IMG/VR virus record: IMGVR_UViG_3300011115_000879
Location: 64,001-128,000 of that record
DNA from: a virus
Direction: 5' to 3' (one strand)
DNA length: 64,000 nucleotides
The notes under the pieces are model-generated. The model searched no databases. It saw only the letters and a program-made list of their open reading frames with translations, and was not told the DNA's origin. Position numbers and translations under genes: made by a program. Below are positions 6,094 through 52,990 of the stretch, one piece after another. Position 1 is the stretch's first letter, and every line of letters begins with the position of its first letter.

Positions 6094-6103
6094 TAATATT
6101 TAT

Positions 6104-6136
6104 AGGTGGCTTGACTAAGTTGAGCCACCTTTTTTA
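6104..6136 (+). terminator. Intrinsic terminator
   Basis: AGGTGGCTTGAC-TAA-GTTGAGCCACCT hairpin followed by a T-run. Confidence 0.85.
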
Positions 6137-6157
6137 TTATTATATTTATGTACAATT

Positions 6158-37394: not shown

Positions 37395-38066
37395 ATGTCT
37401 ACGCAACAAGATGAAAAGTTTAAACAAAAGAAAGTTTTGAAAAACGAAATCAAGTATCAAATCCAACTAAACGAAGAACAAAAAGAGGCAAAACGATTAA
37501 TAAGAGAAAATCAAATCGTAGTGATAACAGGTAGAGCAGGCTGTGGTAAATCCTTAGTATCAGCTCAAACCGCATTAGACTTTCTATTTAAGAAAGAATG
37601 CGATTCTATACATGTTACACGTGCTGCTGTAGAAGTAGGCCACTCATTAGGATTCCTACCAGGTAGCTTAAATGAAAAATTTGATCCATACTTGGAAGCG
37701 TTTCAAGAAAATCTAATTAAATGCTATGACAAGGTTAAAATTAACCAACTTATCAACGACCAGAAAGTTATCGCTCTTCCTGTCCAGTTTATACGCGGAA
37801 AAACAGTGGATGATGTACTTGTGGTGGAAGAAGCACAAAATCTTACTAAAGCAGAAATGCTTGCTATTCTTACACGACTTGGTAAGAATGGCCGGATTAT
37901 AATCAATGGAGATAATGAACAAAAAGACATTAGAGATGAATTTAACGGTTTATCTTATGTTATAGAGTTATCAAAAAAGATAGAAGAAATCAAATGGATT
38001 AAACTCAAACACAACCATAGATCTGATATAGTAGGTAAGATACTAGATTATGAATACAGCAAATAA
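37395..38066 (+). CDS. phoH: PhoH-like ATPase
   Basis: GRAGCGKS, LGFLPG, FIRGKT, EEAQN, TRLG, GDNEQKD, HRS. Confidence 0.93.
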   Translation: MSTQQDEKFKQKKVLKNEIKYQIQLNEEQKEAKRLIRENQIVVITGRAGCGKSLVSAQTALDFLFKKECDSIHVTRAAVEVGHSLGFLPGSLNEKFDPYLEAFQENLIKCYDKVKINQLINDQKVIALPVQFIRGKTVDDVLVVEEAQNLTKAEMLAILTRLGKNGRIIINGDNEQKDIRDEFNGLSYVIELSKKIEEIKWIKLKHNHRSDIVGKILDYEYSK

Positions 38067-38110
38067 TAATAGTTTTATTATATTTATACGTGTTAAATAC
38101 TAGTTAGACA

Positions 38111-40132
38111 ATGGCAATAAACCTAAAAGATCTTTACGACCAATATGGTGGTAATCCGAATAAACTTTCTCCTATAAAGGGTAACTGTCCTTTAGGATAT
38201 TATGATAATGACCCTGAATTCAGCAATGATGCATTGGGAGCTGCTAGATTTGTAGCTCAACGTTTAGGTGTTACAGGTCCTCAATATAATTTTACAACTA
38301 AAACATATAAGGCAAGCCCCGCTACGCTTAACATTACTGATTTAACAGTATATGCAGCATTTGAAGAAGCAGTTACTACATATGGTAATATGGTTTATCA
38401 ATTTAAAATTAGAGATAATTATATTAATTTAGAAGGATCAGATACATTACCATTCTTTCATAATCTCATTACGTATGTTAGAAGTACAGAAGTAGGTTCA
38501 CCGGTAACATGGTCCGCTCCTAGACGATCAACATTTGCCGAAGTTGATTCTGATTCTGCTTATCTTCAATCAATAAATGATGGAGAAATATACACTATAT
38601 CATCATCAGTAGCAGATTATATTGCACCTAATTTAGATTTAATTAAGTCATTTAACTTAGCAGATACTTATTACAGTTCCGGTTCTAATAGAACATATAA
38701 CTTAAGTTCATTTATATATAACCAATTTAACTCAGTAGGAGGAGCAACAATATTTACTCCATTTTATAATCCAAACAGTGGATCATATGATTTCTCTAGT
38801 TACACAAGTAATGATAGTATATTTTCAATAACAGGAAGTAATACAGTAGCAGTACAATTTAAAATTACTTCATCTGTACCAACAGATACACCAACTACAT
38901 TTTATGTAGCTAGCGGTAGCACAGCTGCTCTTACGGCATTTAATATTGCTAATAAAATTACTAGCATATCTTATGGTACATTTGGTACAACAGTAGCAGT
39001 AAATACAGGATCAACAGCTACTACACTTAATTTTACATCATCTACCTCAGCATATGATATTAGTAATTTTAAAGTAAATAGTACAGCTATATTTTCTAAT
39101 GTAACATCCGGATCTACAGCAACAATCCCAGAAGGAAATACACACATATATTTCCGTACTATGCGAAATGATATATTTAGTGGATCTCCATTCTTTATAT
39201 CGGCTTCTATAACACAATCTATACCAACAGTATACATTCAATCAAATATTAATCCTGCATTAAATAATAGATTAGTAAGTAATAACTTAACAACTATTAC
39301 AACACGTATTGCTGAAGATTATGCTGCTGAAGCTGGTGTAGGAGGTAAATATGACATAAAGAAGGGAATAATAAACATGAAAGGTGGTATTCAAGACTAT
39401 GACCTAAATGCATGGGCAGCAGCATCCGCTTCATTAGTAAATGGAGATAGTATTGAAGTTAGAAGAGTATTTTATGAAGGACCACCAGCAATAGCTCGTT
39501 ATTTTGATCCATATGCTGGTACAGGTACAGGTATACAATCACTACTTGAATCATTTGGATTTGGTCAAATGTCTCCTGGTATTAATTTTATGTTAATGCC
39601 TATATCGTTTGATGTATTAAAACTTCAAGCAATTGAGTTAAATGATCAGATAAGAAAAGCAGCATATTCATTTGATTTACAAAATAACCAATTAAAGATA
39701 TTTCCTGTCCCTACAGTTGACATGCCTTTAATGTTTGAATACGTTAAAATAAGTCAAAAAAGTCAAGCAGTAAGGGATAACAGAACAAACGTTGTAACAG
39801 ATATAATGAATGTTCCATATAGAAATCCTATATACTCTAATATCAATGCTGTAGGTAGATTATGGATTCTTAAATATACATTAGGATTATGTAGAGAAAT
39901 CGAAGCACATATTCGTATCCAATCAGCTAATTTAAGCATTGCTGGTATTGGTCCACTACAAGGTAATGAATTAATTGCGGATGCTAGAACAGAAAAACAA
40001 AGTTTAATTGATGAACTAAAAGAGATGCTAAATGAAGTATCACGTAAATCGCAATTAGAACGTAAACAAATGGAAGCTGGCTTTACACGTGATACTTTAA
40101 CAAATGTTCCCATGACAATTTATATACTTTAA
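38111..40132 (+). CDS. Neck/head-tail adaptor (T4 gp13-like) with large S/T-rich insertion
   Basis: N-terminal helical block and C-terminal WILKYTLGLCRE...LQGNELIADARTEKQSLIDEL typical of gp13-like adaptors; position after the capsid genes. Confidence 0.65.
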   Translation: MAINLKDLYDQYGGNPNKLSPIKGNCPLGYYDNDPEFSNDALGAARFVAQRLGVTGPQYNFTTKTYKASPATLNITDLTVYAAFEEAVTTYGNMVYQFKIRDNYINLEGSDTLPFFHNLITYVRSTEVGSPVTWSAPRRSTFAEVDSDSAYLQSINDGEIYTISSSVADYIAPNLDLIKSFNLADTYYSSGSNRTYNLSSFIYNQFNSVGGATIFTPFYNPNSGSYDFSSYTSNDSIFSITGSNTVAVQFKITSSVPTDTPTTFYVASGSTAALTAFNIANKITSISYGTFGTTVAVNTGSTATTLNFTSSTSAYDISNFKVNSTAIFSNVTSGSTATIPEGNTHIYFRTMRNDIFSGSPFFISASITQSIPTVYIQSNINPALNNRLVSNNLTTITTRIAEDYAAEAGVGGKYDIKKGIINMKGGIQDYDLNAWAAASASLVNGDSIEVRRVFYEGPPAIARYFDPYAGTGTGIQSLLESFGFGQMSPGINFMLMPISFDVLKLQAIELNDQIRKAAYSFDLQNNQLKIFPVPTVDMPLMFEYVKISQKSQAVRDNRTNVVTDIMNVPYRNPIYSNINAVGRLWILKYTLGLCREIEAHIRIQSANLSIAGIGPLQGNELIADARTEKQSLIDELKEMLNEVSRKSQLERKQMEAGFTRDTLTNVPMTIYIL

Positions 40133-40133
40133 T

Positions 40134-40754
40134 ATGGCTTATTCAATACGAAAAACATATTGGGCACCAGGAGGTGAAGGATTAGGAGGTGGTGGAGGAA
40201 TAGATGGCCCTTCATCAACAGCAACACCAGATGATGGAACACCCGCAACACCTCCTATAGACCAAGGTGGAGGAACAGAAACACCATCTGGAGGAGGAGC
40301 AGGACCAGCAGATACAGCACTTCAAACAGCAGTAGATTATAGTAATATGAGTGTAATGTATTACAAGATCAATCTTGAAAGTACAAAAACTAATATGTAT
40401 GGTGAGGCGCTAGAAAAATGGTATTACCCACCACTACAAACAAAATGTTTAATTACAAGGGATGCTATAACAAATAGCGACGATGAATTTGGTGTAACTG
40501 TAGCTAATACTATAACAGTATCTATCCCTAGGATTACATTAGATGGATATCAATTCCTACCAGAAGTAGGAGATATATTAATGGATAGAGAGAAAATGTA
40601 TGAAGTAAATAGTATAGACCAAAACTTTATAACATTACCTGGAGGATCAGGACAAGCTCAATCAAATGGTACAGCAGGTGTTACTGTTATATTTGTATTA
40701 AGCTGTTACTTAACTAGACTTACAAAACTTAATTTAATAGAATATTACCAATGA
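40134..40754 (+). CDS. Head closure/neck protein (T4 gp14-like) with Gly/Pro N-terminal segment
   Basis: TNMYGEA, PEVGDIL...YEVNS; follows the gp13-like gene. Confidence 0.6.
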   Translation: MAYSIRKTYWAPGGEGLGGGGGIDGPSSTATPDDGTPATPPIDQGGGTETPSGGGAGPADTALQTAVDYSNMSVMYYKINLESTKTNMYGEALEKWYYPPLQTKCLITRDAITNSDDEFGVTVANTITVSIPRITLDGYQFLPEVGDILMDREKMYEVNSIDQNFITLPGGSGQAQSNGTAGVTVIFVLSCYLTRLTKLNLIEYYQ

Positions 40755-44574: not shown

Positions 44575-44640
44575 TATTTATAGACAGCTTACATAAGCCG
44601 TAATATCAAGATATATATCTAACAAACTGATTCCATACAT

Positions 44641-47600
44641 ATGGCTAGCAATATAGAAATAAAACGGAGTGCCGTCCCTGGCAAAGTCCCAACAACATCA
44701 TCCCTACAACTAGGACAGATAGCCCTTAACACATACGAAGGTAAAGCATATCTTAAAAAAGATAACGGTGTTCAATCTATTATAGAAATAGGTAGCGCAA
44801 CATTCCCGTATATAGGAAATGCCGTTATTACAGGCAGTTTAACTGTAAGTGGTAGTGGAATAACTGTAATAGGCAATCAAACAATAACTGGATCACTCAA
44901 AGTAACTGGTTCTTATACACTAACCGGAACTACATCATTAACAGGTAGTGTTAGTATTAGTGGATCTACGACTATAATAGGTACAACTAATTTTAGTAAT
45001 TCATCAACTACGATAACAGGTTCATTATTAGTAAGTGGCTCTACAACTCAAATAGGCAACAACACTCTAACAGGTAATACTAGTTTAAGTGGTAGTATTA
45101 ATATTAGTGGTTCAAGTACAATACGAGGAACCACTTCAATGACTGGTTCATTATTAGTAAGTGGTTCTACAACACAAATTGGTAATAATACTCTAACAGG
45201 AAATACCCTATTAAGTGGTAGTATTACAATATCAGGATCGTTTCCTATAGGTAGTTATTCATCATCTGTAAACATATACGGAGATACATCAATGACGGGT
45301 TACTTAAAATTTAACCCTCAATCTACAAATATAAACACATCCATATCATCATCGTATATCTATGTATCAGGTTCAACAAATGATTTATATTTTAGCCAAA
45401 ACAGTAATGGATTTAGTAATATAACTCGTTTACGTTGGTTAGAAGGTAATCTATACACAGGTTTATTAAATGGGGGAATAATCACAACACAATCATCCAC
45501 AGTATATCAAGTACAAAGCGGTAGTGGTATTATTGTTACAATGAATGCTTCACTAGGCAGTGACCCATACCCTACAGTACAATACATTAACTGGCCAACT
45601 TTATCATCCAGTATAGCATCATTAAGTGCATCATATGACCAGCAATTTGTTGCTATAAATACATCAGCACAAATATTTGCTCAAGGAATACCATATTATG
45701 ACGGTGATTATAATACTAAAATACCACTTGGTATTGTAATACATCAAAATCACTCAACAATAAATGCCGTACAAACATTTCCAAGTGTAGGATATGGCTG
45801 GAAACAAAGATCATATGATTTTATTAAAGCATTTGGCCCATTAAAAACATCAGGTTATACTTTACAAGCAAGTAGCTCACTTGGATTATTATTAGGAGGA
45901 GGTACTGCATGGGTTGATGGTAGAAATTATACAGTAGACCCAAATAATCCAAGTTACATTACAGAAGCAACAGGTATAACAACATCAAAGATATACTACT
46001 ACTATCAAACAGGATCCGATTTTAAATATGATACAAATGGTGGAAACGGATATACAAACGTAACAGCATCGTTGTATTCAAATAATGGTGTATTAACTGC
46101 CTTATCAACCAATAATAAGTGGTCAATACAAAGAGTATATTATTTCCCTAATAGTGCTACAAAAGCATTTTACATTTATTATGGTAATGTTCAATATGAT
46201 ACCTATGCAGAGGCTTTAGCAGGTATATCTACAGAAGCATTTACCGAAGCACCAAACACAGCAGCAAACGCCATCTTTGTGGGATATATGCTGTTACAAA
46301 AAACAGCAAATTTTACTACAACTCCTGGACCAACAGGAACATGGGAATTTAGAGCAGGTAGCTTATTCAGAGCAGGAGGTAGTGGAGGAGCTAGTGGTGG
46401 TGGCGGCGGTGGTGCAACATCATTAACTGGTTTAACTGATGTATCTATAACTTCACCAACTAATGGACAACCATTAACATATAATGCTACTACAACAAAA
46501 TGGAGTAATAGCAGCGCTATAACAGCTAGTGTATTAGGTAATTTAACTGGTACAGCAGCAACAGCATCCTATGTAACAGCATCTGCTGTAGTAGGAACTG
46601 TAGCAAGTAGTTCATATGCTTTAACAGCATCATATGCAATGAATGGTGGTGGCGTTACATCGATAATAGCAGGTAGTGGTATAAGTGTAAATCAATCAAC
46701 AGGAAATGTAACTATTACAAACACAGGTGGTGGTGGTTCAACATTTCCCTATATAGGAAATGCTGTCATTACAGGTAGTTTGACTGTAAGTGGTAGTGGA
46801 ATAACAGGATCATTATACGGTGTAGCAGAATCTGCTTTAGTTAAATATGAATTAGCAACATATAACTTTGGAGGTAGTAACTATAAAATTAGTGATTTTC
46901 AAAATTCTATTATGGGTGTTTATTCAAATTTTAATCCCAATATATCAAATGCTGGTGATAGTATACCTACTTTATTACCATATCTATATGTAGATATATT
47001 AGACTATACTAATCAAACAGCATATTATAAACAAACATTCAGTACTTTATCTAGTTTAAGTAGTTCATTATCTTCAAGAGGAGTCGTTACAGGTAAATTA
47101 ATCTTCTATTCATATCAAAATGATACTAAAAATATGAAAGTAGGAGGTATTAATATATTATATTCATCAATAGGCAATAATAAAATCCAATCAAGAAAAT
47201 CAATTAACCCTGATACAGGATCAGCAGCATATACTGCACTTAATAATTTCATATCAAGTTCATTAGTTACATATGGTTCATCTAATATACCTAATTTTAC
47301 TACTAATTATATTAATCAAAATCAAGTTAATACAATACATACAGGTAAAGTTATAGGAATGGTACCTATTAACAAATATGAAAAAAGACATATAAAAAAT
47401 TTCTATTATTACAATCCTAAACCTAATAGCTCAGTTAATTCAAGTAATAGCTTAGTAACACCTGCAACAACACGTAGTAAATTATTAGCCCATATACTCT
47501 GTTCAGTCGTTATAACTAAAACAACAGTACCCGTTTTTAATTTTAGTTTTGTAGCACTTAATACAACATATAGATATTCTTGGGATAATAGTGGAGTATT

Positions 47601-48030
47601 TAAAGCTAATGGCAACCAAGGATATTTCCATATTTATATATTCGAAACAGATCCAGGACTGCGAAGCATAGCAGTTGAAGCCTTAACAATAGATCAATTA
47701 AACTTACCCTTTTCATCGCGGTCAGGAGATGCTACTGGTGCTCATTCTAGCTATATGTATTTACTCAAGAAAAATAATACTATAGCTGTAAGTACATCTC
47801 ATACAAGAACCGATACTCAATTAGACATAGACGGAGTAAGTTTAATAGATAATACATTTAATATAAATGGTAATTTTTTCTATAATGATAAAAATAATAA
47901 CGATATAACAGCTATTAGATTTTATTCAAATAAAACATGTGATGTATTTAATAGATGTTGTAGATTAGAATATAATAAGTATAATGGAACTAAACTAAAT
48001 TATTTTAAATTAAATTATAATAGTCCTTAA
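44641..48030 (+). CDS. Long tail fibre protein, mosaic
   Basis: N-terminal IEIKRSAVPGKVP...LGQIALNT fibre head; TGS repeats; internal direct repeats; compositionally distinct C-terminus. Confidence 0.75.
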   Translation: MASNIEIKRSAVPGKVPTTSSLQLGQIALNTYEGKAYLKKDNGVQSIIEIGSATFPYIGNAVITGSLTVSGSGITVIGNQTITGSLKVTGSYTLTGTTSLTGSVSISGSTTIIGTTNFSNSSTTITGSLLVSGSTTQIGNNTLTGNTSLSGSINISGSSTIRGTTSMTGSLLVSGSTTQIGNNTLTGNTLLSGSITISGSFPIGSYSSSVNIYGDTSMTGYLKFNPQSTNINTSISSSYIYVSGSTNDLYFSQNSNGFSNITRLRWLEGNLYTGLLNGGIITTQSSTVYQVQSGSGIIVTMNASLGSDPYPTVQYINWPTLSSSIASLSASYDQQFVAINTSAQIFAQGIPYYDGDYNTKIPLGIVIHQNHSTINAVQTFPSVGYGWKQRSYDFIKAFGPLKTSGYTLQASSSLGLLLGGGTAWVDGRNYTVDPNNPSYITEATGITTSKIYYYYQTGSDFKYDTNGGNGYTNVTASLYSNNGVLTALSTNNKWSIQRVYYFPNSATKAFYIYYGNVQYDTYAEALAGISTEAFTEAPNTAANAIFVGYMLLQKTANFTTTPGPTGTWEFRAGSLFRAGGSGGASGGGGGGATSLTGLTDVSITSPTNGQPLTYNATTTKWSNSSAITASVLGNLTGTAATASYVTASAVVGTVASSSYALTASYAMNGGGVTSIIAGSGISVNQSTGNVTITNTGGGGSTFPYIGNAVITGSLTVSGSGITGSLYGVAESALVKYELATYNFGGSNYKISDFQNSIMGVYSNFNPNISNAGDSIPTLLPYLYVDILDYTNQTAYYKQTFSTLSSLSSSLSSRGVVTGKLIFYSYQNDTKNMKVGGINILYSSIGNNKIQSRKSINPDTGSAAYTALNNFISSSLVTYGSSNIPNFTTNYINQNQVNTIHTGKVIGMVPINKYEKRHIKNFYYYNPKPNSSVNSSNSLVTPATTRSKLLAHILCSVVITKTTVPVFNFSFVALNTTYRYSWDNSGVFKANGNQGYFHIYIFETDPGLRSIAVEALTIDQLNLPFSSRSGDATGAHSSYMYLLKKNNTIAVSTSHTRTDTQLDIDGVSLIDNTFNINGNFFYNDKNNNDITAIRFYSNKTCDVFNRCCRLEYNKYNGTKLNYFKLNYNSP

Positions 48031-48045
48031 TATTATAATATTTAT

Positions 48046-48148
48046 AAATAGAAGCTACTGACTAAAATGTGAGTTTCTATTTTGGATACGCTGTTTAAAA
48101 TACAATATCCTATTAAGTCCCTGCTGTCCAAAATGCAAGGGACTTTTT
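48046..48148 (+). repeat. Three tandem hairpins at 33-nt period with conserved loop TGNNNAAAAT (candidate small RNA)
   Basis: Loops TGACTAAAAT (48059), TGTTTAAAAT (48092) and TGTCCAAAAT (48125), each in a different self-complementary stem; bounded by ATATTTAT (48038) and a T-run. Confidence 0.65.
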
Positions 48149-48168
48149 CTATCTAATTAATATCGAAT

Positions 48169-49236
48169 ATGCAAAATAGTATTTCATTTAAAAAACCAAA
48201 CGACCTAAATGCTTACCAACTCATCAAAAGTGGTAGCACACTACAACTAAACTACTACTCAGCTAGTATTGTACCGGTATCTGGAGGAATTTTAAATATA
48301 AGCTCAAGTATAAATGTGACCGGAGGTATAACAGGATCATTATTTGGAACTGCAACTACAGCATCATATATTTTAAATGCAGTAAATGCTGGTAATGGAT
48401 TTCCATTTAGTGGAAGTGCCATTATTACAGGTAGTTTAGTTGTAAGTGGTAGTAGTGGTTTAACAGTATTAGGACCATCAGTTTTTAAAGCAACTGGATC
48501 AGGTGTAAAAGTATTTTCCCTACAATCATCTGATTATATTGCTGGTTCAGCAGGAACTTCTCTAGAAATAGATGCACCTTCTGGGAGTCCTTCTACTTCT
48601 ACTATAACAGTTAAACAAGCAGGTGGGAATGTTGCTGCAAACTTAACTTTATCAACAAGTACTAATTTAATATTACCAAATAGTTCATTAGCTATAGGTA
48701 AAACATCACCATCTACTACATTAGATGTATTAGGTACTACCAACCTTTCAGGTTCATTATCTGTAAAAGGAACCGCAGCTATAACAGGCTCATTATCAGT
48801 AAGCGGCTCAACAACTATTAGAGGGTTAGGTAGTAATGATTTTACAATATTAGCACCTGACTTTGTTGGAAGTTCTACCGGAACAGAAATATTAATTACT
48901 GCCCCTGCCTCAAACGCCTCTGCTACATTAAGTGTTAGAACCGGTGGAGGGCCAGGCGGTGGAAATTTAACAATATCATCAGGAACTACTATAATAGGAT
49001 CATTTAGCGGATCTTTAGTAGGTACTGCATCAACAGCGTCATTTGTAACAGGATCTGTATTTAACAGTGCTAATCTAGCATTAAGTGCATCGTATGCTTT
49101 AACAGCATCCTACATACTACAGGCAGTAAGTGCTTCATTCGCAACAACAGCTTCATTCGCTTTAAATGCAGGAACAGCAGGTATTTCACAAGGTAAAGTA
49201 GTAGCAATAGCAACAGGATATTCAAATTTATTTTAA
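48169..49236 (+). CDS. Fibre protein
   Basis: Shares GFPFSGSAxITGSL and IGKTxPxxxLDVLGxTNLSGSL modules with 42712..44574. Confidence 0.65.
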   Translation: MQNSISFKKPNDLNAYQLIKSGSTLQLNYYSASIVPVSGGILNISSSINVTGGITGSLFGTATTASYILNAVNAGNGFPFSGSAIITGSLVVSGSSGLTVLGPSVFKATGSGVKVFSLQSSDYIAGSAGTSLEIDAPSGSPSTSTITVKQAGGNVAANLTLSTSTNLILPNSSLAIGKTSPSTTLDVLGTTNLSGSLSVKGTAAITGSLSVSGSTTIRGLGSNDFTILAPDFVGSSTGTEILITAPASNASATLSVRTGGGPGGGNLTISSGTTIIGSFSGSLVGTASTASFVTGSVFNSANLALSASYALTASYILQAVSASFATTASFALNAGTAGISQGKVVAIATGYSNLF

Positions 49237-49248
49237 AATATATAAACA

Positions 49249-49680
49249 ATGGCCGTAAACACAAACCCAATTTATTCCGGTACTGGACAAATAGGATTTA
49301 CCACAGTTTTAACAGCAGCAAACGCATCTTATGATGCAACTGCAGCAAATGCAGTAACATTAATTAATGCTAGTGTATCAGGTAGTTTCATACAAAGAAT
49401 CAGATTTAAAGCATCAGGCTCAGCAACAGCAACAGTAGCACGTGTATTTCTTAATAATGCTGGTGGTGTAACAAGTAGCGCAGCAAGTAGTGTATTATTT
49501 GATGAAATTACATTAGCAGCAACTACAGCAACACAAACAGCAGCAACCGCAGTATATGAACTACCAATGAATATAGCTTTACCATCAGGAAGTGCTATTG
49601 TAGTAGCAATTGCTACTGCCCAAGCTGGAGGTGGTGGATGGTATGCATCTGCTATAGGTGGTTCTTATGTTCCTCAATAA
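49249..49680 (+). CDS. Small Ala/Thr-rich fibre-tip/adaptor protein
   Basis: 143 aa, beta-rich, between the fibre and the glycine-rich genes. Confidence 0.45.
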   Translation: MAVNTNPIYSGTGQIGFTTVLTAANASYDATAANAVTLINASVSGSFIQRIRFKASGSATATVARVFLNNAGGVTSSAASSVLFDEITLAATTATQTAATAVYELPMNIALPSGSAIVVAIATAQAGGGGWYASAIGGSYVPQ

Positions 49681-49695
49681 TAAAATTATAATAAT

Positions 49696-49872
49696 ATGAG
49701 ATATATGCTAATACAGGATGATGCAAATCCTGAAGTACAAATGTATTACGTAATGGAAGATGGTATAAATCAACTAATAAAAGTAGTTGATATGAATTGC
49801 AATGAATGCGGAGCCCCCGCAGCGCATTCTGTTATAGATAATAATCCACCATTACCCCCTTGCGCTGAATAA
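49696..49872 (+). CDS. Small acidic protein (58 aa, absent from ORF track)
   Basis: MRYMLIQDDANPEVQMYYVMEDG...CNECG...PPCAE; fills the gap in the fibre cassette. Confidence 0.55.
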   Translation: MRYMLIQDDANPEVQMYYVMEDGINQLIKVVDMNCNECGAPAAHSVIDNNPPLPPCAE

Positions 49873-49884
49873 TAATTCTAAGTT

Positions 49885-50805
49885 ATGTTAGATCTCTTTA
49901 ATATACCGTCTAATACAGATAGTACTAAAATATTTTATGTTCAAGGAGCAACAACTTGGCAAACATGGGTAAAACCACGTAATGCCAAGTTTATACAAAT
50001 TGTTTGTATAGGTGGTGGTGGTGGAGGAGGCGGTGGAAGAGGAGCAAATGGAACCGCTACAGTTAGAGGTGGTGGTGGTGGGGGTGCTAGTGGTGGTATT
50101 ACACAAGGTCTATACCCAGCATTCCTACTACCAGACACTTTATATGTACAACCAGGAATAGGAGGAGCAGGTGGACCCGGAGGTAATCTAGTAGGAGGAA
50201 CAGCGGGTACAGCAGGAAGTACTAGTATAGTAACCTTACTTCCAACATCATCTGCTATAAGTAACATATGCATTGCTGCTGGAGGTAATGGAGGTGGTGC
50301 TGGTGCTACAGGAAATGCTGCAGGGGGAACTTCAACAGCCGCACAAACAGTAACAAATGCTCTTTTTTTAACACATGCTATCTTTACATCTTATGCTACA
50401 GTAGCAGGTAGTCAAGGAGCAGGTGTAGCCGGCGGCGCACCAGGAGCAGGCCAAACAGCATTAAATACAGCAATAATAACTGGAGGAGGAGGAGGAGGAA
50501 CAGCAACCGCTGGACCTGGAGGATCAATACTACCAGCTTCGGTAATACTATTATCTGTTGTTAGTGGCTCACCAGCACAAACTTCACCTAGTGTTAGTAT
50601 ACCTGCAGATAGTGGATACGGCTCTTTAACACCATTCTGCGGAACTGGAGGAGGTGGAGGTGGAGGAAACAATGCATTTACCGGAAGTGCAGGTGGAAGT
50701 GGATATTACGGGTGTGGTGGAGGTGGAGCCGGAGGAGGACAAAACGTTGGTGGAAGAGGCGGAAAAGGCGGAGACGGTTTAGTAATAATAACAACAATAA
50801 CATAA
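49885..50805 (+). CDS. Glycine-rich adhesin-like protein, paralogue 1
   Basis: MLD...TWVKPR...CIGGGGG...LPDTLYV...GGKGGDGLVIITT. Confidence 0.7.
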   Translation: MLDLFNIPSNTDSTKIFYVQGATTWQTWVKPRNAKFIQIVCIGGGGGGGGGRGANGTATVRGGGGGGASGGITQGLYPAFLLPDTLYVQPGIGGAGGPGGNLVGGTAGTAGSTSIVTLLPTSSAISNICIAAGGNGGGAGATGNAAGGTSTAAQTVTNALFLTHAIFTSYATVAGSQGAGVAGGAPGAGQTALNTAIITGGGGGGTATAGPGGSILPASVILLSVVSGSPAQTSPSVSIPADSGYGSLTPFCGTGGGGGGGNNAFTGSAGGSGYYGCGGGGAGGGQNVGGRGGKGGDGLVIITTIT

Positions 50806-51668
50806 TGTTAGATTTAGGATATTTTCAAAATAGCGGAAATGTAAATACACAAACATTTACAAACGCAGGCTCTTGGGTAACATGGCTTAAACCAAGAGGT
50901 GCTAAGTTTGTAAATATATTTTGTATTGGTGCCGGATCCGGTGGTGGTGGAGGATTTTTAACAGGATCTGGAGCTAAATCAGGTGGTCAAGGTGGTTCAA
51001 CTGGTGGTTATGTAAGATTACAATTACAAGCATCGATCCTACCAGATCTACTATACGTACAAACTGGAGTAGGTGGAACAGGAGGAACAGGAGGAAACCC
51101 ATCAACTGCCGGAGGTAACGCAACAAAATCATATGTTTGTTTAATACCAGACACATCAAGTGCTTCTAATATAGTTTGCACATCAGGTAACGTAGTCGCA
51201 ACAGGAGGAGTAGGAGGATCAACTATAACAGCAACGGGGGGTGTAGCAGAATCAATAGCTACAACAGCTAATATGGTATTTGCGAATTTAGGAACTTTCT
51301 TAGCAAGCCCGGGTGCTGGTGGACAAGCAGGAGGATTGACAACCGGTGGTAATGTTGGTACGAGTACCTTCCTAATAGCAGGTTCGGGAGGAGGAGGAAC
51401 AACTACGGGTGGTACGATGGTAGCGAATGGCCCCTTTCCTGGACTTCTAACTACAGCTGCTAATGCAAGTGGAGCAAATGGAATAACATTATATAAACCA
51501 ATTTTATTATTCTCAGGAGGCATGGGCGCTGGAGGCGGTACAAATGGAGGTAAAGGCGGTGATGGAGCGCAATGTTGCGGTGGTGGAGGTGGAGGAGCAG
51601 GCACCGCATCAGCAGGTAACGGAGGTAAAGGTGGAGATGGATTAATAATAATAACAACAAGTTTTTAA
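50805..51668 (+). CDS. Glycine-rich adhesin-like protein, paralogue 2
   Basis: True start MLDLG at 50805 (TAATG overlap); same framework motifs as paralogue 1. Confidence 0.7.
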   Translation: MLDLGYFQNSGNVNTQTFTNAGSWVTWLKPRGAKFVNIFCIGAGSGGGGGFLTGSGAKSGGQGGSTGGYVRLQLQASILPDLLYVQTGVGGTGGTGGNPSTAGGNATKSYVCLIPDTSSASNIVCTSGNVVATGGVGGSTITATGGVAESIATTANMVFANLGTFLASPGAGGQAGGLTTGGNVGTSTFLIAGSGGGGTTTGGTMVANGPFPGLLTTAANASGANGITLYKPILLFSGGMGAGGGTNGGKGGDGAQCCGGGGGGAGTASAGNGGKGGDGLIIITTSF

Positions 51669-51672
51669 AAAT

Positions 51673-52515
51673 ATGTTAGATGTATTTAATATACCGGGAC
51701 AGCAAGATAACGTAAAGATATTTTATGTTCAAAGAAGTTCCAATTCATGGCAAACATGGCAAAAACCAAGAAACTGTAAGTTTATTTGGATGATGTGTAT
51801 TGGTGGTGGAGCTGGAGGTAATGGAGGAGCTAGCAATGCGGTTGCTGGTGGATCTAATGGTGGAGGCTCAGGAGGAGTAGTAAGAGCACTATTCCCAGCA
51901 AATATACTACCAGATACCTTATATATACAACCTGGATTAGGAGGAGTAGGAGGTAGTGCTGGGTCAGGTACTGGTGGTGATGGAGCAAAAAGTTATGTAA
52001 CAATAACCTCAAGTACAGCATCAATAATGAATATAGTTTGTACATCGGGGGCGGTAGCAGCTACCGGCCTTACTGGTGAAACAATAGCTACAACAGCAAA
52101 TGCCGGATTATTAAGTTTAGGAAATTTTATAGCAATAGCTGGGCAATCATATGCTTTTGCACCTGTGACTCCACTAACATTAACCTTTGTTAGTGCGGGA
52201 TCAAATGGAGGTAATTCAACCTCCTCTCCTCCTAATGATGGAGGATCAATACTTGCTACAAACATATCACCCGTAATACTCGGAGGTGCTTCAAATACTA
52301 TGGTAGGAGGTAGCGGAATTGTATCTTGGAAACCATTTTATTGTCTTGGAGGAGCCGGAGGGTGGGGTAGTAACTCTGTTGACGCCGGGATTGGTACTAA
52401 TGGAGGTAATGGGGCTTTTGGTTGCGGTGGGGGTGGTGGAGGTTCATCTACTTCTAGTACGGGTGGTGTTGGTGGAAATGGAGGTAATGGTTTAGTATTT
52501 ATAGCAACTTTCTAA
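51673..52515 (+). CDS. Glycine-rich adhesin-like protein, paralogue 3
   Basis: MLDVFNIP...TWQKPR...CIGGGAGG...LPDTLYI...GGNGGNGLVFIATF. Confidence 0.7.
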   Translation: MLDVFNIPGQQDNVKIFYVQRSSNSWQTWQKPRNCKFIWMMCIGGGAGGNGGASNAVAGGSNGGGSGGVVRALFPANILPDTLYIQPGLGGVGGSAGSGTGGDGAKSYVTITSSTASIMNIVCTSGAVAATGLTGETIATTANAGLLSLGNFIAIAGQSYAFAPVTPLTLTFVSAGSNGGNSTSSPPNDGGSILATNISPVILGGASNTMVGGSGIVSWKPFYCLGGAGGWGSNSVDAGIGTNGGNGAFGCGGGGGGSSTSSTGGVGGNGGNGLVFIATF

Positions 52516-52536
52516 TATTTATATAAAACAACAATA

Positions 52537-52929
52537 ATGAACATCAACGACGTAACTTACGATTGGAACTTTAACCCATTTGAAGCATACCCACAATATG
52601 CAGAACAAACAGATGTTGTATTTACAATACATTGGCAATTATATGCATCAACTGGATCTTATAGCTCAAAAGCAATTGGTACAATAGGTGTACAATATAA
52701 TGAAGGACAACCATTTACTCCTTTCAATGAATTAACTAAAGAAACAGTACAAGCTTGGGTAGAAGGAGCTATGAACAAACAAAGTGAAGGATCAGTAGAT
52801 ACTCTTAAAGCTAATCTTGCTCAACAAATCCAAGATCAGATAACTCCATCAATAGTTGTACTGACAGCACCTTGGAATGTCGCTCCAGTAGTAGAAGAAA
52901 CACCAGTAGAAGAAGACTATAGTATATAA
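52537..52929 (+). CDS. Fibre-associated small protein (possible chaperone/accessory)
   Basis: VVFTIHW...FTPFNELTKETVQAWV pattern; located at the end of the fibre cassette. Confidence 0.45.
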   Translation: MNINDVTYDWNFNPFEAYPQYAEQTDVVFTIHWQLYASTGSYSSKAIGTIGVQYNEGQPFTPFNELTKETVQAWVEGAMNKQSEGSVDTLKANLAQQIQDQITPSIVVLTAPWNVAPVVEETPVEEDYSI

Positions 52930-52990
52930 AAAATTTGGTTGGCTTTATTTTCTTGTATATATTTATATCAAACAAATAAAACAATCATTT

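What the first reader, a model, noticed from the sequence alone, without database searches (positions are those of the whole stretch)
48038..48148. Non-coding triple-hairpin array: exact 33-nt period, conserved loop, unrelated stems
Seen: right after ATATTTAT (48038) come three hairpins whose loops begin at 48059, 48092 and 48125: C-TGACTAAAAT-G, C-TGTTTAAAAT-A, C-TGTCCAAAAT-G. The stems (AAATAGAAGCT/AGTTTCTATTT, GGATA/TATCC, AAGTCCCT/AGGGACTT) share no sequence yet each pairs; the middle one is weakest, and the last ends in a T-run. Conserved loops on divergent paired stems point to selection on structure. Known: multi-hairpin RNAs titrate proteins (CsrB type); type III antitoxins are ~35-nt repeats cut at A-rich sites and can be mimicked by phage. 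Inference: a ~100-nt late decoy/sponge RNA, or a three-site attenuator controlling the downstream fibre-adhesin cassette.
Basis: partly seen in the sequence, partly recalled or inferred. Interest (0 to 1): 0.8.

Follow-up and report, generated by a model that had tools for sequence, protein, structure and literature searches.

The report
Triple-hairpin leader RNA between phage fibre genes
Between two tail-fibre genes of an uncultured T4-like phage lies a real run of three RNA hairpins that show the same loop sequence and end in a terminator; it probably controls or stabilises late fibre transcripts, but it occurs in no other known sequence, so its role is unproven.

Summary
The 138-nt spacer 48031-48168 carries a late-promoter box, ATATTTAT (48038-45). 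It is followed directly by hairpins H1 (48046-82), H2 (48084-110) and H3 (48115-145, then UUUUU). CTGNNNAAAAT sits at 48058, 48091 and 48124, an exact 33-nt period, and all three hairpins share one structural register.

One claim needs correcting: the stems are not unrelated. The units are 50-60% identical overall, so this is a diverged tandem triplication. H1 and H3 share AG..CU frames, and all four stem pairs that differ between them are compensated. H2 is weak and failed a leave-one-out model test.

The array is a singleton. I found no second copy in the 159.6-kb phage, in 67 related phage records, in IMG/VR or in 241 million metagenome records. Rfam gives nothing above threshold.

The box at 48038 is the only late-promoter motif before the six-gene fibre/adhesin cassette, so H3 acts as a promoter-proximal terminator. 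No antiterminator fold exists. H3's 10-nt loop is unusually large for this phage's terminators.

Best reading: a late leader and ~100-nt terminated RNA that sets read-through, with loops that may bind a protein. The type III antitoxin-mimic idea fails its defining tests. A sponge role is untested. Interest is modest.

The parts
44641..48030 (+). Upstream 1129-aa tail-fibre gene; its stop TAA is at 48028-30
   Evidence: ORF list; PHROG tail-fibre hit in the N-terminal part; repetitive TGSLxVSGS motifs
48038..48045 (+). Late-promoter-type box ATATTTAT, directly abutting H1. The 14-nt context TTATAATATTTATA is identical to the box 15 nt before a gene at genome position 138361
   Evidence: 55 + strand against 10 - strand copies in the genome, most 8-25 nt before an ATG; the same motif sits before genes in relatives
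48046..48082 (+). Hairpin H1: 11-bp stem plus A-U and C-G pairs, bulged G, 10-nt loop UGACUAAAAU; -9.6 kcal/mol in full, -5.4 if transcription starts near 48050
48084..48110 (+). Hairpin H2: 5-bp stem GGAUA/UAUCC in the same register, with loop CGCUGUUUAAAAUACAA; weak (-3.6 kcal/mol) and possibly decayed
   Evidence: not recovered by the H1+H3 model
48115..48150 (+). Hairpin H3: 8-bp stem plus G-C and C-G pairs, bulged A, 10-nt loop UGUCCAAAAU, -13.1 kcal/mol, followed by UUUUUC; an intrinsic-terminator-like end
48058..48134 (+). Three copies of CTGNNNAAAAT at 48058, 48091 and 48124 (period exactly 33). The extended consensus is C-UG-NNN-AAAAU-R-Y-R-A
48169..49236 (+). Downstream 355-aa fibre-like gene, first of a six-gene cassette (to about 52515) that has no late-promoter box of its own
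   Evidence: synteny with L011-type relatives

Best explanation
The element is a diverged tandem triplication of one 33-nt stem-loop unit that works as RNA on the sense strand.

Layout shown by the sequence: it lies directly after a late-promoter box and directly before the first gene of a six-gene distal fibre/adhesin cassette that has no promoter box of its own. Its last unit is an intrinsic-type terminator.

Inferred mechanism: late transcripts start about 5-8 nt after the box, or read in from the upstream fibre gene. They fold into three hairpins. A fraction ends at H3, giving a hairpin-capped RNA of about 100 nt and a protected 3' end for the upstream fibre mRNA. The remainder reads through and expresses the cassette. 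The array would thus set the amount of cassette mRNA.

Each hairpin displays the same decaloop, C(UG-NNN-AAAAU)G. This is much larger than the 3-6-nt loops of the phage's ordinary terminators. The loops are therefore probably kept as three binding sites for a protein of phage or host that modulates termination, read-through or RNA stability.

Shown: the structure, the register, the compensated stem changes, the promoter motif, the terminator-like end and the absence of another promoter box. Inferred: transcription itself, partial termination and protein binding.
For: Structure:
- Three hairpins are predicted in all contexts.
- They share one register, with 6 doubly changed pairs, 79.5% of cells paired against 23-44% when slid.
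- H1 and H3 match at 22 of 37 columns, and all four differing stem pairs are compensated.

Strand and promoter:
- 209 of 215 genes are on the + strand.
- ATATTTAT is a strand-biased motif placed before genes and is conserved in relatives.
- There is no TATTTAT on the + strand between 48045 and 52496.

Terminator:
- H3 is -13.1 kcal/mol and is followed by U5.
- 11 of the phage's 13 terminator-like hairpins have 3-6-nt loops; H3 has a 10-nt loop.
- In an ordinary conserved terminator of this phage group (window 6104-6130) the stem is kept and the loop varies. In the array it is the loop motif that is best kept.

Chance:
- Loop columns 13-23 are three-way invariant at 8 of 11 positions, against 5 of 22 in the other columns of the 33-nt unit (counted).
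- The motif triple is rare in shuffles (6e-4) and tops the natural triples.
Against: - No homologue exists in the phage itself, 67 related records, IMG/VR or the metagenome collection. There is therefore no cross-species covariation and no evidence of retention.
- H2 is no better than a chance hairpin on its own.
- For H1 against H3 alone, the loop region (10 of 15 identical) is not clearly better kept than the rest (12 of 22). Loop conservation could be partly residual identity from the duplication.
- The genome-wide significance of the loop identity is modest: 31/45 against a runner-up of 29/45.
- No antiterminator alternative was found.
- No candidate RNA-binding protein was identified; RegA is absent.
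- No expression data are available.
Confidence: 0.45

Rival explanations
1. It is an ordinary tandem terminator and 3'-end stabiliser with no sequence-specific loop function. A terminator hairpin was duplicated twice by slippage. The stems were kept paired because termination and stability need them. The shared loop letters are leftover identity from the duplication.
For: - The units are 50-60% identical over their whole length, stems included.
- For H1 against H3 the loop is hardly better conserved than the rest.
- H2 looks decayed.
- H3 has a U-run.
- The element follows a long structural gene, as does the single hairpin at 6104-6130.
- There are no homologues or further copies that would point to a recognised motif.
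Against: - Three-way invariance is concentrated in the loop: 8 of 11 positions against 5 of 22 outside it.
- 10-nt loops are atypical for this phage's terminators.
- Ordinary terminators of the group vary in the loop, not the stem.
- A strong triple terminator in front of six promoter-less essential fibre genes would be counter-productive.
Confidence: 0.3
2. It is a stand-alone late small RNA of about 100 nt that acts as a decoy or sponge. Three identical loops would titrate a host or phage RNA-binding protein, or mimic the RNA antitoxin of a host abortive-infection system, as pseudo-ToxI does.
For: - The promoter box and terminator delimit a unit of about 100 nt.
- The layout of several hairpins with one loop motif resembles protein-sponge RNAs.
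- A precedent for a phage RNA antitoxin mimic exists (PMC3475682).
- The loops contain AAAU-type A-rich sites.
Against: - Type III antitoxins are near-identical repeats that fold as pseudoknots and precede a toxin gene (PMC5086642). Here the units are 50-60% identical simple hairpins followed by a fibre gene.
- No antitoxin family appears among the four Rfam matches up to E = 10.
- ToxN is absent from the phage.
- The 33-bp arrays in Bacteroidota genomes that share CTGNNNAAAAT do not match the hairpin model. They look like DNA repeats next to ATPase or mobilisation genes.
- There is no conservation in related phages.
Confidence: 0.08
3. It is a DNA-level element: three direct 11-bp protein-binding sites spaced three helical turns apart, or a scar at the junction of two exchanged fibre modules. 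On this reading the hairpin potential is secondary.
For: - The 33-bp spacing is exact.
- The array lies at a module boundary. The close relative L305 keeps the flanking spacers (44575-44640 and 52930-52990) almost unchanged but has different genes in between. The downstream cassette is syntenic with a different phage group.
- 33-bp DNA repeat arrays with a similar core exist in Bacteroidota.
Against: - Stems of 11+2 bp and 8+2 bp, in the same register as the motif and with compensated changes, are not needed for double-stranded DNA binding.
- 33 bp is not an integral number of turns (about 3.1).
- There are no other copies of the motif in hairpin or array form in the genome.
Confidence: 0.07
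4. It is a chance resemblance in an AT-rich spacer.
For: - 5-bp hairpins are ubiquitous.
- The motif was defined after the fact.
- A runner-up triple scores 29/45.
- The element is a singleton.
Against: - Shuffles of the spacer reach the motif triple in 6e-4 of cases, before any stem is required.
- The fold z-score is -3.2.
- The register test gives 0 of 500.
- None of the 32 metagenome and 3 viral two-unit motif matches has stems in register.
Confidence: 0.05

Closest known systems
Leader (promoter-proximal) intrinsic terminators and attenuators, including protein-dependent ones that use repeated RNA sites (TRAP/trp, HutP/hut, PyrR/pyr; from general knowledge)
   Same: The order is promoter, structured leader, hairpin with U-run, then promoter-less genes. 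Repeated short RNA motifs could bind an oligomeric protein.
   Different: No alternative antiterminator structure exists. The motif is displayed in hairpin loops, one of which is the terminator's own loop. No regulator is known and there is no conservation.
Tandem Rho-independent terminators and 3' stabilising hairpins of phage late mRNAs (T4 post-transcriptional control, PMC3014915)
   Same: Stable hairpins after a long structural gene, with a U-run after the last one.
   Different: The loops are 10 nt and share a sequence. Ordinary terminators of this phage have 3-6-nt loops that vary between relatives.
Protein-sponge RNAs with repeated loop motifs (CsrB/RsmY/RsmZ, GGA loops; from general knowledge)
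   Same: Several hairpins with differing stems that present one loop motif and end in a terminator.
   Different: The motif is CUGNNNAAAAU, not GGA. There are only three units. The element is embedded as a leader in an operon, and no partner protein is known.
Type III antitoxin RNAs (ToxI, CptI, TenpI, AntiQ) and the phage pseudo-ToxI mimic (PMC5086642, PMC3475682)
   Same: Short tandem units (about 33 nt here, about 34-45 nt there), A-rich sites, a terminator after the repeats, and a precedent in phages.
   Different: Here the units are only 50-60% identical and fold as simple hairpins rather than pseudoknots. The downstream gene is a fibre protein. There is no Rfam similarity and no ToxN.
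trpB ncRNA motif, Rfam RF04312 (riboswitch candidate of Firmicutes and Fusobacteria, PMC11109978)
   Same: Best sub-threshold Rfam match: a long hairpin, an AU-rich linker, then a terminator (27.4 bits, E = 0.048 for the 241-nt search).
   Different: The score is far below the gathering score of 59. The conserved trpB nucleotides are only partly present, and the taxa and gene context are unrelated.

Membership tests
Intrinsic (Rho-independent) terminator | G+C-containing stem followed immediately by a U-run | tested here: met
   H3 has 8+2 bp at -13.1 kcal/mol and is followed by UUUUUC. H1 is followed only by UAUUUU taken from its own stem base. H2 has no U-run.
Intrinsic (Rho-independent) terminator | Short loop (usually 3-8 nt) | tested here: not met
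   The loop is 10 nt (15 nt without the 2-bp extension). The consensus scan with loop 3-8 did not call it. 11 of the 13 terminator-like hairpins in this phage have 3-6-nt loops.
Transcription attenuator or riboswitch-type leader | Promoter, then leader with terminator, then genes that lack their own promoter | tested here: met
   ATATTTAT is at 48038. The next + strand TATTTAT is at 52496.
Transcription attenuator or riboswitch-type leader | Mutually exclusive antiterminator and terminator structures | tested here: not met
   H3 pairs with probability about 1.0, and no competing fold appears within 3 kcal/mol.
Type III toxin-antitoxin antitoxin RNA or phage mimic | Tandem array of near-identical direct repeats | tested here: not met
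   The units are 50-60% identical. Tandem Repeats Finder does not report a 33-nt array even at score 30.
Type III toxin-antitoxin antitoxin RNA or phage mimic | Repeats, then terminator, then an endoribonuclease toxin gene (ToxN/AbiQ/CptN/TenpN) | tested here: not met
   The downstream gene is a fibre-like protein with no Pfam toxin domain. PF13958 is absent from the phage. A mimic would not need the toxin gene, so this test bears on membership only.
Type III toxin-antitoxin antitoxin RNA or phage mimic | Sequence or structure similarity to a known antitoxin family; pseudoknot monomer | tested here: not met
   Only four Rfam matches up to E = 10, none an antitoxin family. The predicted monomers are plain hairpins. 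Pseudoknots are not modelled by the folding tool.
CsrB/Rsm-type sponge RNA | Multiple GGA-containing loops bound by CsrA/RsmA | tested here: not met
   The loops read CUGNNNAAAAU. The only GGA lies in the stem of H2.
trpB motif (RF04312) | Score at or above the Rfam gathering threshold | tested here: not met
   27.4 bits against a threshold of 59.
Conserved structured RNA family (any) | Homologues in other genomes that show covariation | tested here: not met
   The covariance model R1 finds nothing convincing in the phage's own genome, 67 related records or L305. Pattern scans of IMG/VR, the metagenome collection and prokaryote genomes give no hairpin array in register.

The most novel reading that the evidence does not exclude
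The array is made as a discrete late RNA of about 100 nt. Its three identical decaloops act as a multivalent decoy for an RNA-binding protein of the Bacteroidota host, either a defence nuclease or a global regulator in a phylum that lacks Hfq, ProQ and CsrA. It would be a new class of phage sponge RNA, doubling as the gate to the host-range cassette.
Probability: 0.07. Interest if true: 0.75.

Novelty: new variant of a known kind. Interest (0 to 1): 0.33.

Why it matters
If the loops are recognised by a protein, this would be a compact example of a phage controlling the dosage of its host-range (distal fibre/adhesin) genes through a three-site RNA leader. The host phylum, Bacteroidota, is one whose RNA-binding regulators are poorly known, and the RNA could serve as bait to find such a protein. 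If it is only a triplicated terminator, it still shows compensatory stem evolution between paralogous hairpins within one spacer, and it marks a junction of exchanged fibre modules. With a single occurrence and no expression data, its present value is as a testable lead, not a discovery.

Tried and rejected
1. Rfam gave nothing at gathering thresholds. The best sub-threshold hit, trpB RF04312 at 27.4 against 59 bits, was rejected as a generic hairpin-linker-terminator resemblance.
2. The other nine CTGNNNAAAAT sites in the genome are not in hairpin loops.
3. Model R1 found no further copy in the phage, in 18 records that share fibre or baseplate genes, in 49 records that share the capsid gene, including two complete genomes, or in the close relative L305. 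The few weak hits were antisense to genes or were ordinary terminators.
4. A three-loop pattern scan of IMG/VR returned only plain tandem repeats. A two-unit extended pattern returned 3 viral and 32 metagenome matches, none with stems in register.
5. The prokaryote scan returned many 33-bp arrays in Bacteroidota. One core, AAACTGCACAAAATGGAAAGTTT, lies before AAA_14/DUF4143 ATPase genes. Another, ACCTGTAAAAAATAATRCAAGGT, lies near mobilisation genes. I considered these as host models for a mimic and rejected them: R1 does not match them, the whole unit rather than the loop is conserved, the orientation is opposite, and the phage has no DUF4143 gene.
6. RegA (PF01818) and ToxN (PF13958) are absent from the phage.
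7. An apparent 33-nt motif triple in relative G053 turned out to be coding sequence.
8. A 9-mer shared between H3 and G053's copy of the 6104-type terminator, and a 7-mer shared between H1 and the phage's own copy, are probably chance. That terminator's loop varies freely among 80 relatives.
9. Coding remnant: the motif reads CTG-NNN-AAA-ATR in the same frame as both flanking genes. However, in-frame stops lie at 48028, 48049, 48070 and 48154, and only a 27-codon open stretch exists.
10. Pairing of 48077-84 with codons 2-4 of the 355-aa gene is 17-28% populated only when H1 is 5'-truncated, and that start region ranks 14th of 209 gene starts for pairing with the leader. It is not distinctive.
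11. Homology of the promoter-proximal leader to the L011-type spacer is suggestive but not demonstrable.

Full report
**Context.** The window is bases 64001-128000 of a 159,567-bp IMG/VR phage record with 32% G+C. A crude gene call puts 209 of 215 genes on the + strand. Earlier notes of this scan call it a T4-like phage of Bacteroidota from fresh water. I did not test the host, but start sites without Shine-Dalgarno sequences and a gp23-type capsid gene in relatives agree with that.

The finding lies in the 138-nt spacer 48031-48168. Upstream is a 1129-aa tail-fibre gene (44641-48030). Downstream is a 355-aa fibre-like gene (48169-49236), followed by genes of 143 and 58 aa and three glycine-rich-domain genes.

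**The observation.**
- ATATTTAT lies at 48038-45.
- H1 is 48046-82, with an 11-bp stem plus two further pairs, a bulged G and the loop UGACUAAAAU.
- H2 is 48084-110, with a 5-bp stem.
- H3 is 48115-145, with an 8-bp stem plus two pairs, a bulged A and the loop UGUCCAAAAU, followed by UUUUUC.
- CTGNNNAAAAT starts at 48058, 48091 and 48124.

The RNA fold returns exactly these hairpins at -28.5 kcal/mol with z = -3.2. They persist in all flank contexts.

Three 37-nt frames taken at the 33-nt period align without a gap. One register of pairs fits all three: 79.5% of cells pair, against 23-44% when the partners are slid, and six pairs change on both sides.

**How unusual it is.**
- In 20,000 dinucleotide shuffles of the spacer, a three-way match of at least 8 of 11 at any period from 20 to 50 arose 12 times.
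- I took all 3,500 equally spaced triples of hairpins with at least 5 bp in this phage and two complete relatives. After setting aside plain tandem repeats, the array has the top loop identity (31/45) and by far the best stems. The runner-up reaches 29/45, so the loop statistic alone is not overwhelming.
- H2's 5-bp stem is at chance level in isolation. A model built from H1 and H3 does not find H2.

**Correction to 'unrelated stems'.** H1 and H3 are identical at 22 of 37 columns. They share the stem ends AG...CU / AG...CU. The three central stem pairs and the pair next to the loop all differ, and all four are compensated.

All unit pairs are 50-60% identical. The array is therefore best described as an old tandem triplication of one 33-nt hairpin unit. 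Structure has been maintained in H1 and H3, and H2 has partly decayed. Loop columns are three-way invariant at 8 of 11 positions, against 5 of 22 elsewhere in the unit, so the loop is the best-kept part. For H1 against H3 alone the contrast is weak.

**Surroundings.** ATATTTAT is a genuine upstream element. It occurs 55 times on the + strand and 10 times on the - strand, mostly 8-25 nt before an ATG. It is found in the same position in relatives.

The copy at 48038 has the same 14-nt context as a copy 15 nt before a gene elsewhere in the genome. No TATTTAT occurs on the + strand between 48045 and 52496. All late transcription of the six-gene cassette therefore passes through H1-H3.

H3 is one of 13 terminator-like hairpins in the genome's spacers. 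Eleven of these have 3-6-nt loops, while H3 has a 10-nt loop. A terminator after the 262-aa gene (window 6104-6130) is conserved in many relatives with a covarying stem and a freely varying loop. That is the opposite pattern to the array's.

No antiterminator alternative exists: H3 forms with probability about 1.0. A pairing between 48077-84 and codons 2-4 of the 355-aa gene becomes 17-28% populated only if H1 is 5'-truncated, as expected for transcripts from the local promoter. It is not distinctive among gene starts.

**Search for relatives.**
- The 355-aa protein has no close homologue among 5.8 billion protein clusters; the best hit is 61% identity over 37% of its length. The 1129-aa protein has only two weak matches in IMG/VR.
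- A close relative, L305, has gene sizes of 223, 673 and 206 aa matching the window's genes at 37395-40754. It keeps the spacers 44575-44640 and 52930-52990 almost unchanged, but carries genes of 570 and 147 aa in place of the 1129-aa gene, the array and the cassette.
- The cassette itself is syntenic with a different, more G+C-rich phage group (L011). There a 98-aa gene and a short leader take the array's place.
- The array therefore sits at a junction of exchanged fibre modules, and no orthologous spacer exists.
- Model R1 finds no other copy in the phage, in 67 related records including two complete genomes, or in L305.
- Pattern scans of IMG/VR, the metagenome collection and prokaryote genomes give only tandem repeats or matches without stems.
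- Rfam gives nothing at threshold. The best sub-threshold match is trpB at 27.4 against 59 bits, a generic resemblance.

**Host arrays found on the way.** The prokaryote scan returned many 33-bp arrays in Bacteroidota that contain CTGNNNAAAAT.
- In Bacteroidales, 3-4 units sit about 70 nt before AAA_14/DUF4143 ATPase genes.
- In Bergeyella, 14 units lie beside MobC, relaxase and ParA genes.

They satisfy the search pattern by construction. Their whole 23-nt core is conserved rather than a loop, they do not match R1, and the phage has no DUF4143 gene. I treat them as unrelated DNA repeats and report them separately.

**Mechanism.** The best-supported reading is a sense-strand RNA element. It is a late leader and 3'-end structure whose last hairpin terminates a fraction of transcripts, producing a hairpin-capped RNA of about 100 nt. 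The fraction that reads through expresses the cassette.

The retained large loops suggest three binding sites for an unknown protein, but this step is inference. RegA is absent and no partner was identified.

The plain tandem-terminator reading is nearly as good. The type III antitoxin-mimic reading fails the family's defining features as given in PMC5086642. A sponge role remains possible but has no support. A DNA-level role and chance are unlikely, given the compensated stems in register.

**Verdict.** The feature is real and moderately unusual, and it has a sensible layout as a promoter-proximal terminator or leader. It is a singleton with no conservation and no expression evidence. I class it as a new variant of a known kind, with modest interest.

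Noticed in passing
L187:1730-1796, L197:5997-6096, L191:1577-1675, L169:5285-5350, L157:1763-1829, L224:3173-3239, L160:2692-2791, L190:7763-7877: Many Bacteroidales genomes carry 3-4 tandem 32-33-bp units with core AAACTGCACAAAATGGAAAGTTT and a variable spacer of about 10 nt. In most of the examples checked they lie about 70 nt upstream of a gene of about 430 aa encoding an AAA_14 + DUF4143 ATPase, with the motif antisense to the gene. They are not in Rfam. They may be an operator or an RNA element of these defence-island-type ATPases.
   Followed up: partly
L173:3226-3640 (Bergeyella cardium chromosome); also L166, L205, L176, L199, L201, L214: Weeksellaceae and Flavobacteriaceae carry 33-bp arrays with core ACCTGTAAAAAATAATRCAAGGT, 14 copies in Bergeyella. 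There the array lies in an AT-rich gap beside MobC/NikA-like, relaxase and ParA-like genes, so it may be iterons, a centromere-like site or an oriT-region repeat of a mobile element.
   Followed up: partly
window 6094-6157: A module of ATATTTAT, a 12-bp hairpin, a T-run and a second ATATTTAT precedes a gene starting MIKL. The same module, with a covarying stem and a variable loop, occurs in relatives L307, L344, L345, L362-365, L378 and G053. Why a promoter box sits directly before a terminator hairpin is unexplained.
   Followed up: partly
window 44575-52990 compared with L305:10559-12864: Fibre-module swap. A close relative keeps the leader 44575-44640 (64 of 66 nt identical) and the spacer 52930-52990, but has genes of 570 and 147 aa where this phage has the 1129-aa gene, the hairpin array and six cassette genes. 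The cassette is syntenic with a different phage group (L011).
   Followed up: partly
window 48028-48171: The upstream ORF, the motif read as CTG-NNN-AAA-ATR and the downstream ORF are all in the same reading frame. The spacer is 138 nt, or 46 codons. In-frame stops TAA, TAG and TGA follow one another at 21-nt steps (48028, 48049, 48070). This is probably coincidence (chance about 1 in 9 for the frame), but a decayed coding origin cannot be excluded.
   Followed up: partly
window 48077-48084 and 48172-48179: CUAUUUUG, at the junction of H1's 3' arm and H2, is complementary to CAAAAUAG, codons 2-4 of the 355-aa gene. The extended duplex is -14.9 kcal/mol. It is 17-28% populated only in transcripts that lack the 5' part of H1, so it could make translation depend on which promoter made the mRNA.
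   Followed up: partly
window 48043-48050: The box is part of the palindrome TATTTATAAATA. It therefore contains both this phage's ATATTTAT and the T4 late-promoter sequence TATAAATA.
   Followed up: no
genome 35-48 kb (before the window): Spacers of the early region repeat a second promoter-like motif, GGCAAAAT..(C)GTAYATTCA, followed by an A-rich leader. Other readers of this scan have already noted it.
   Followed up: no
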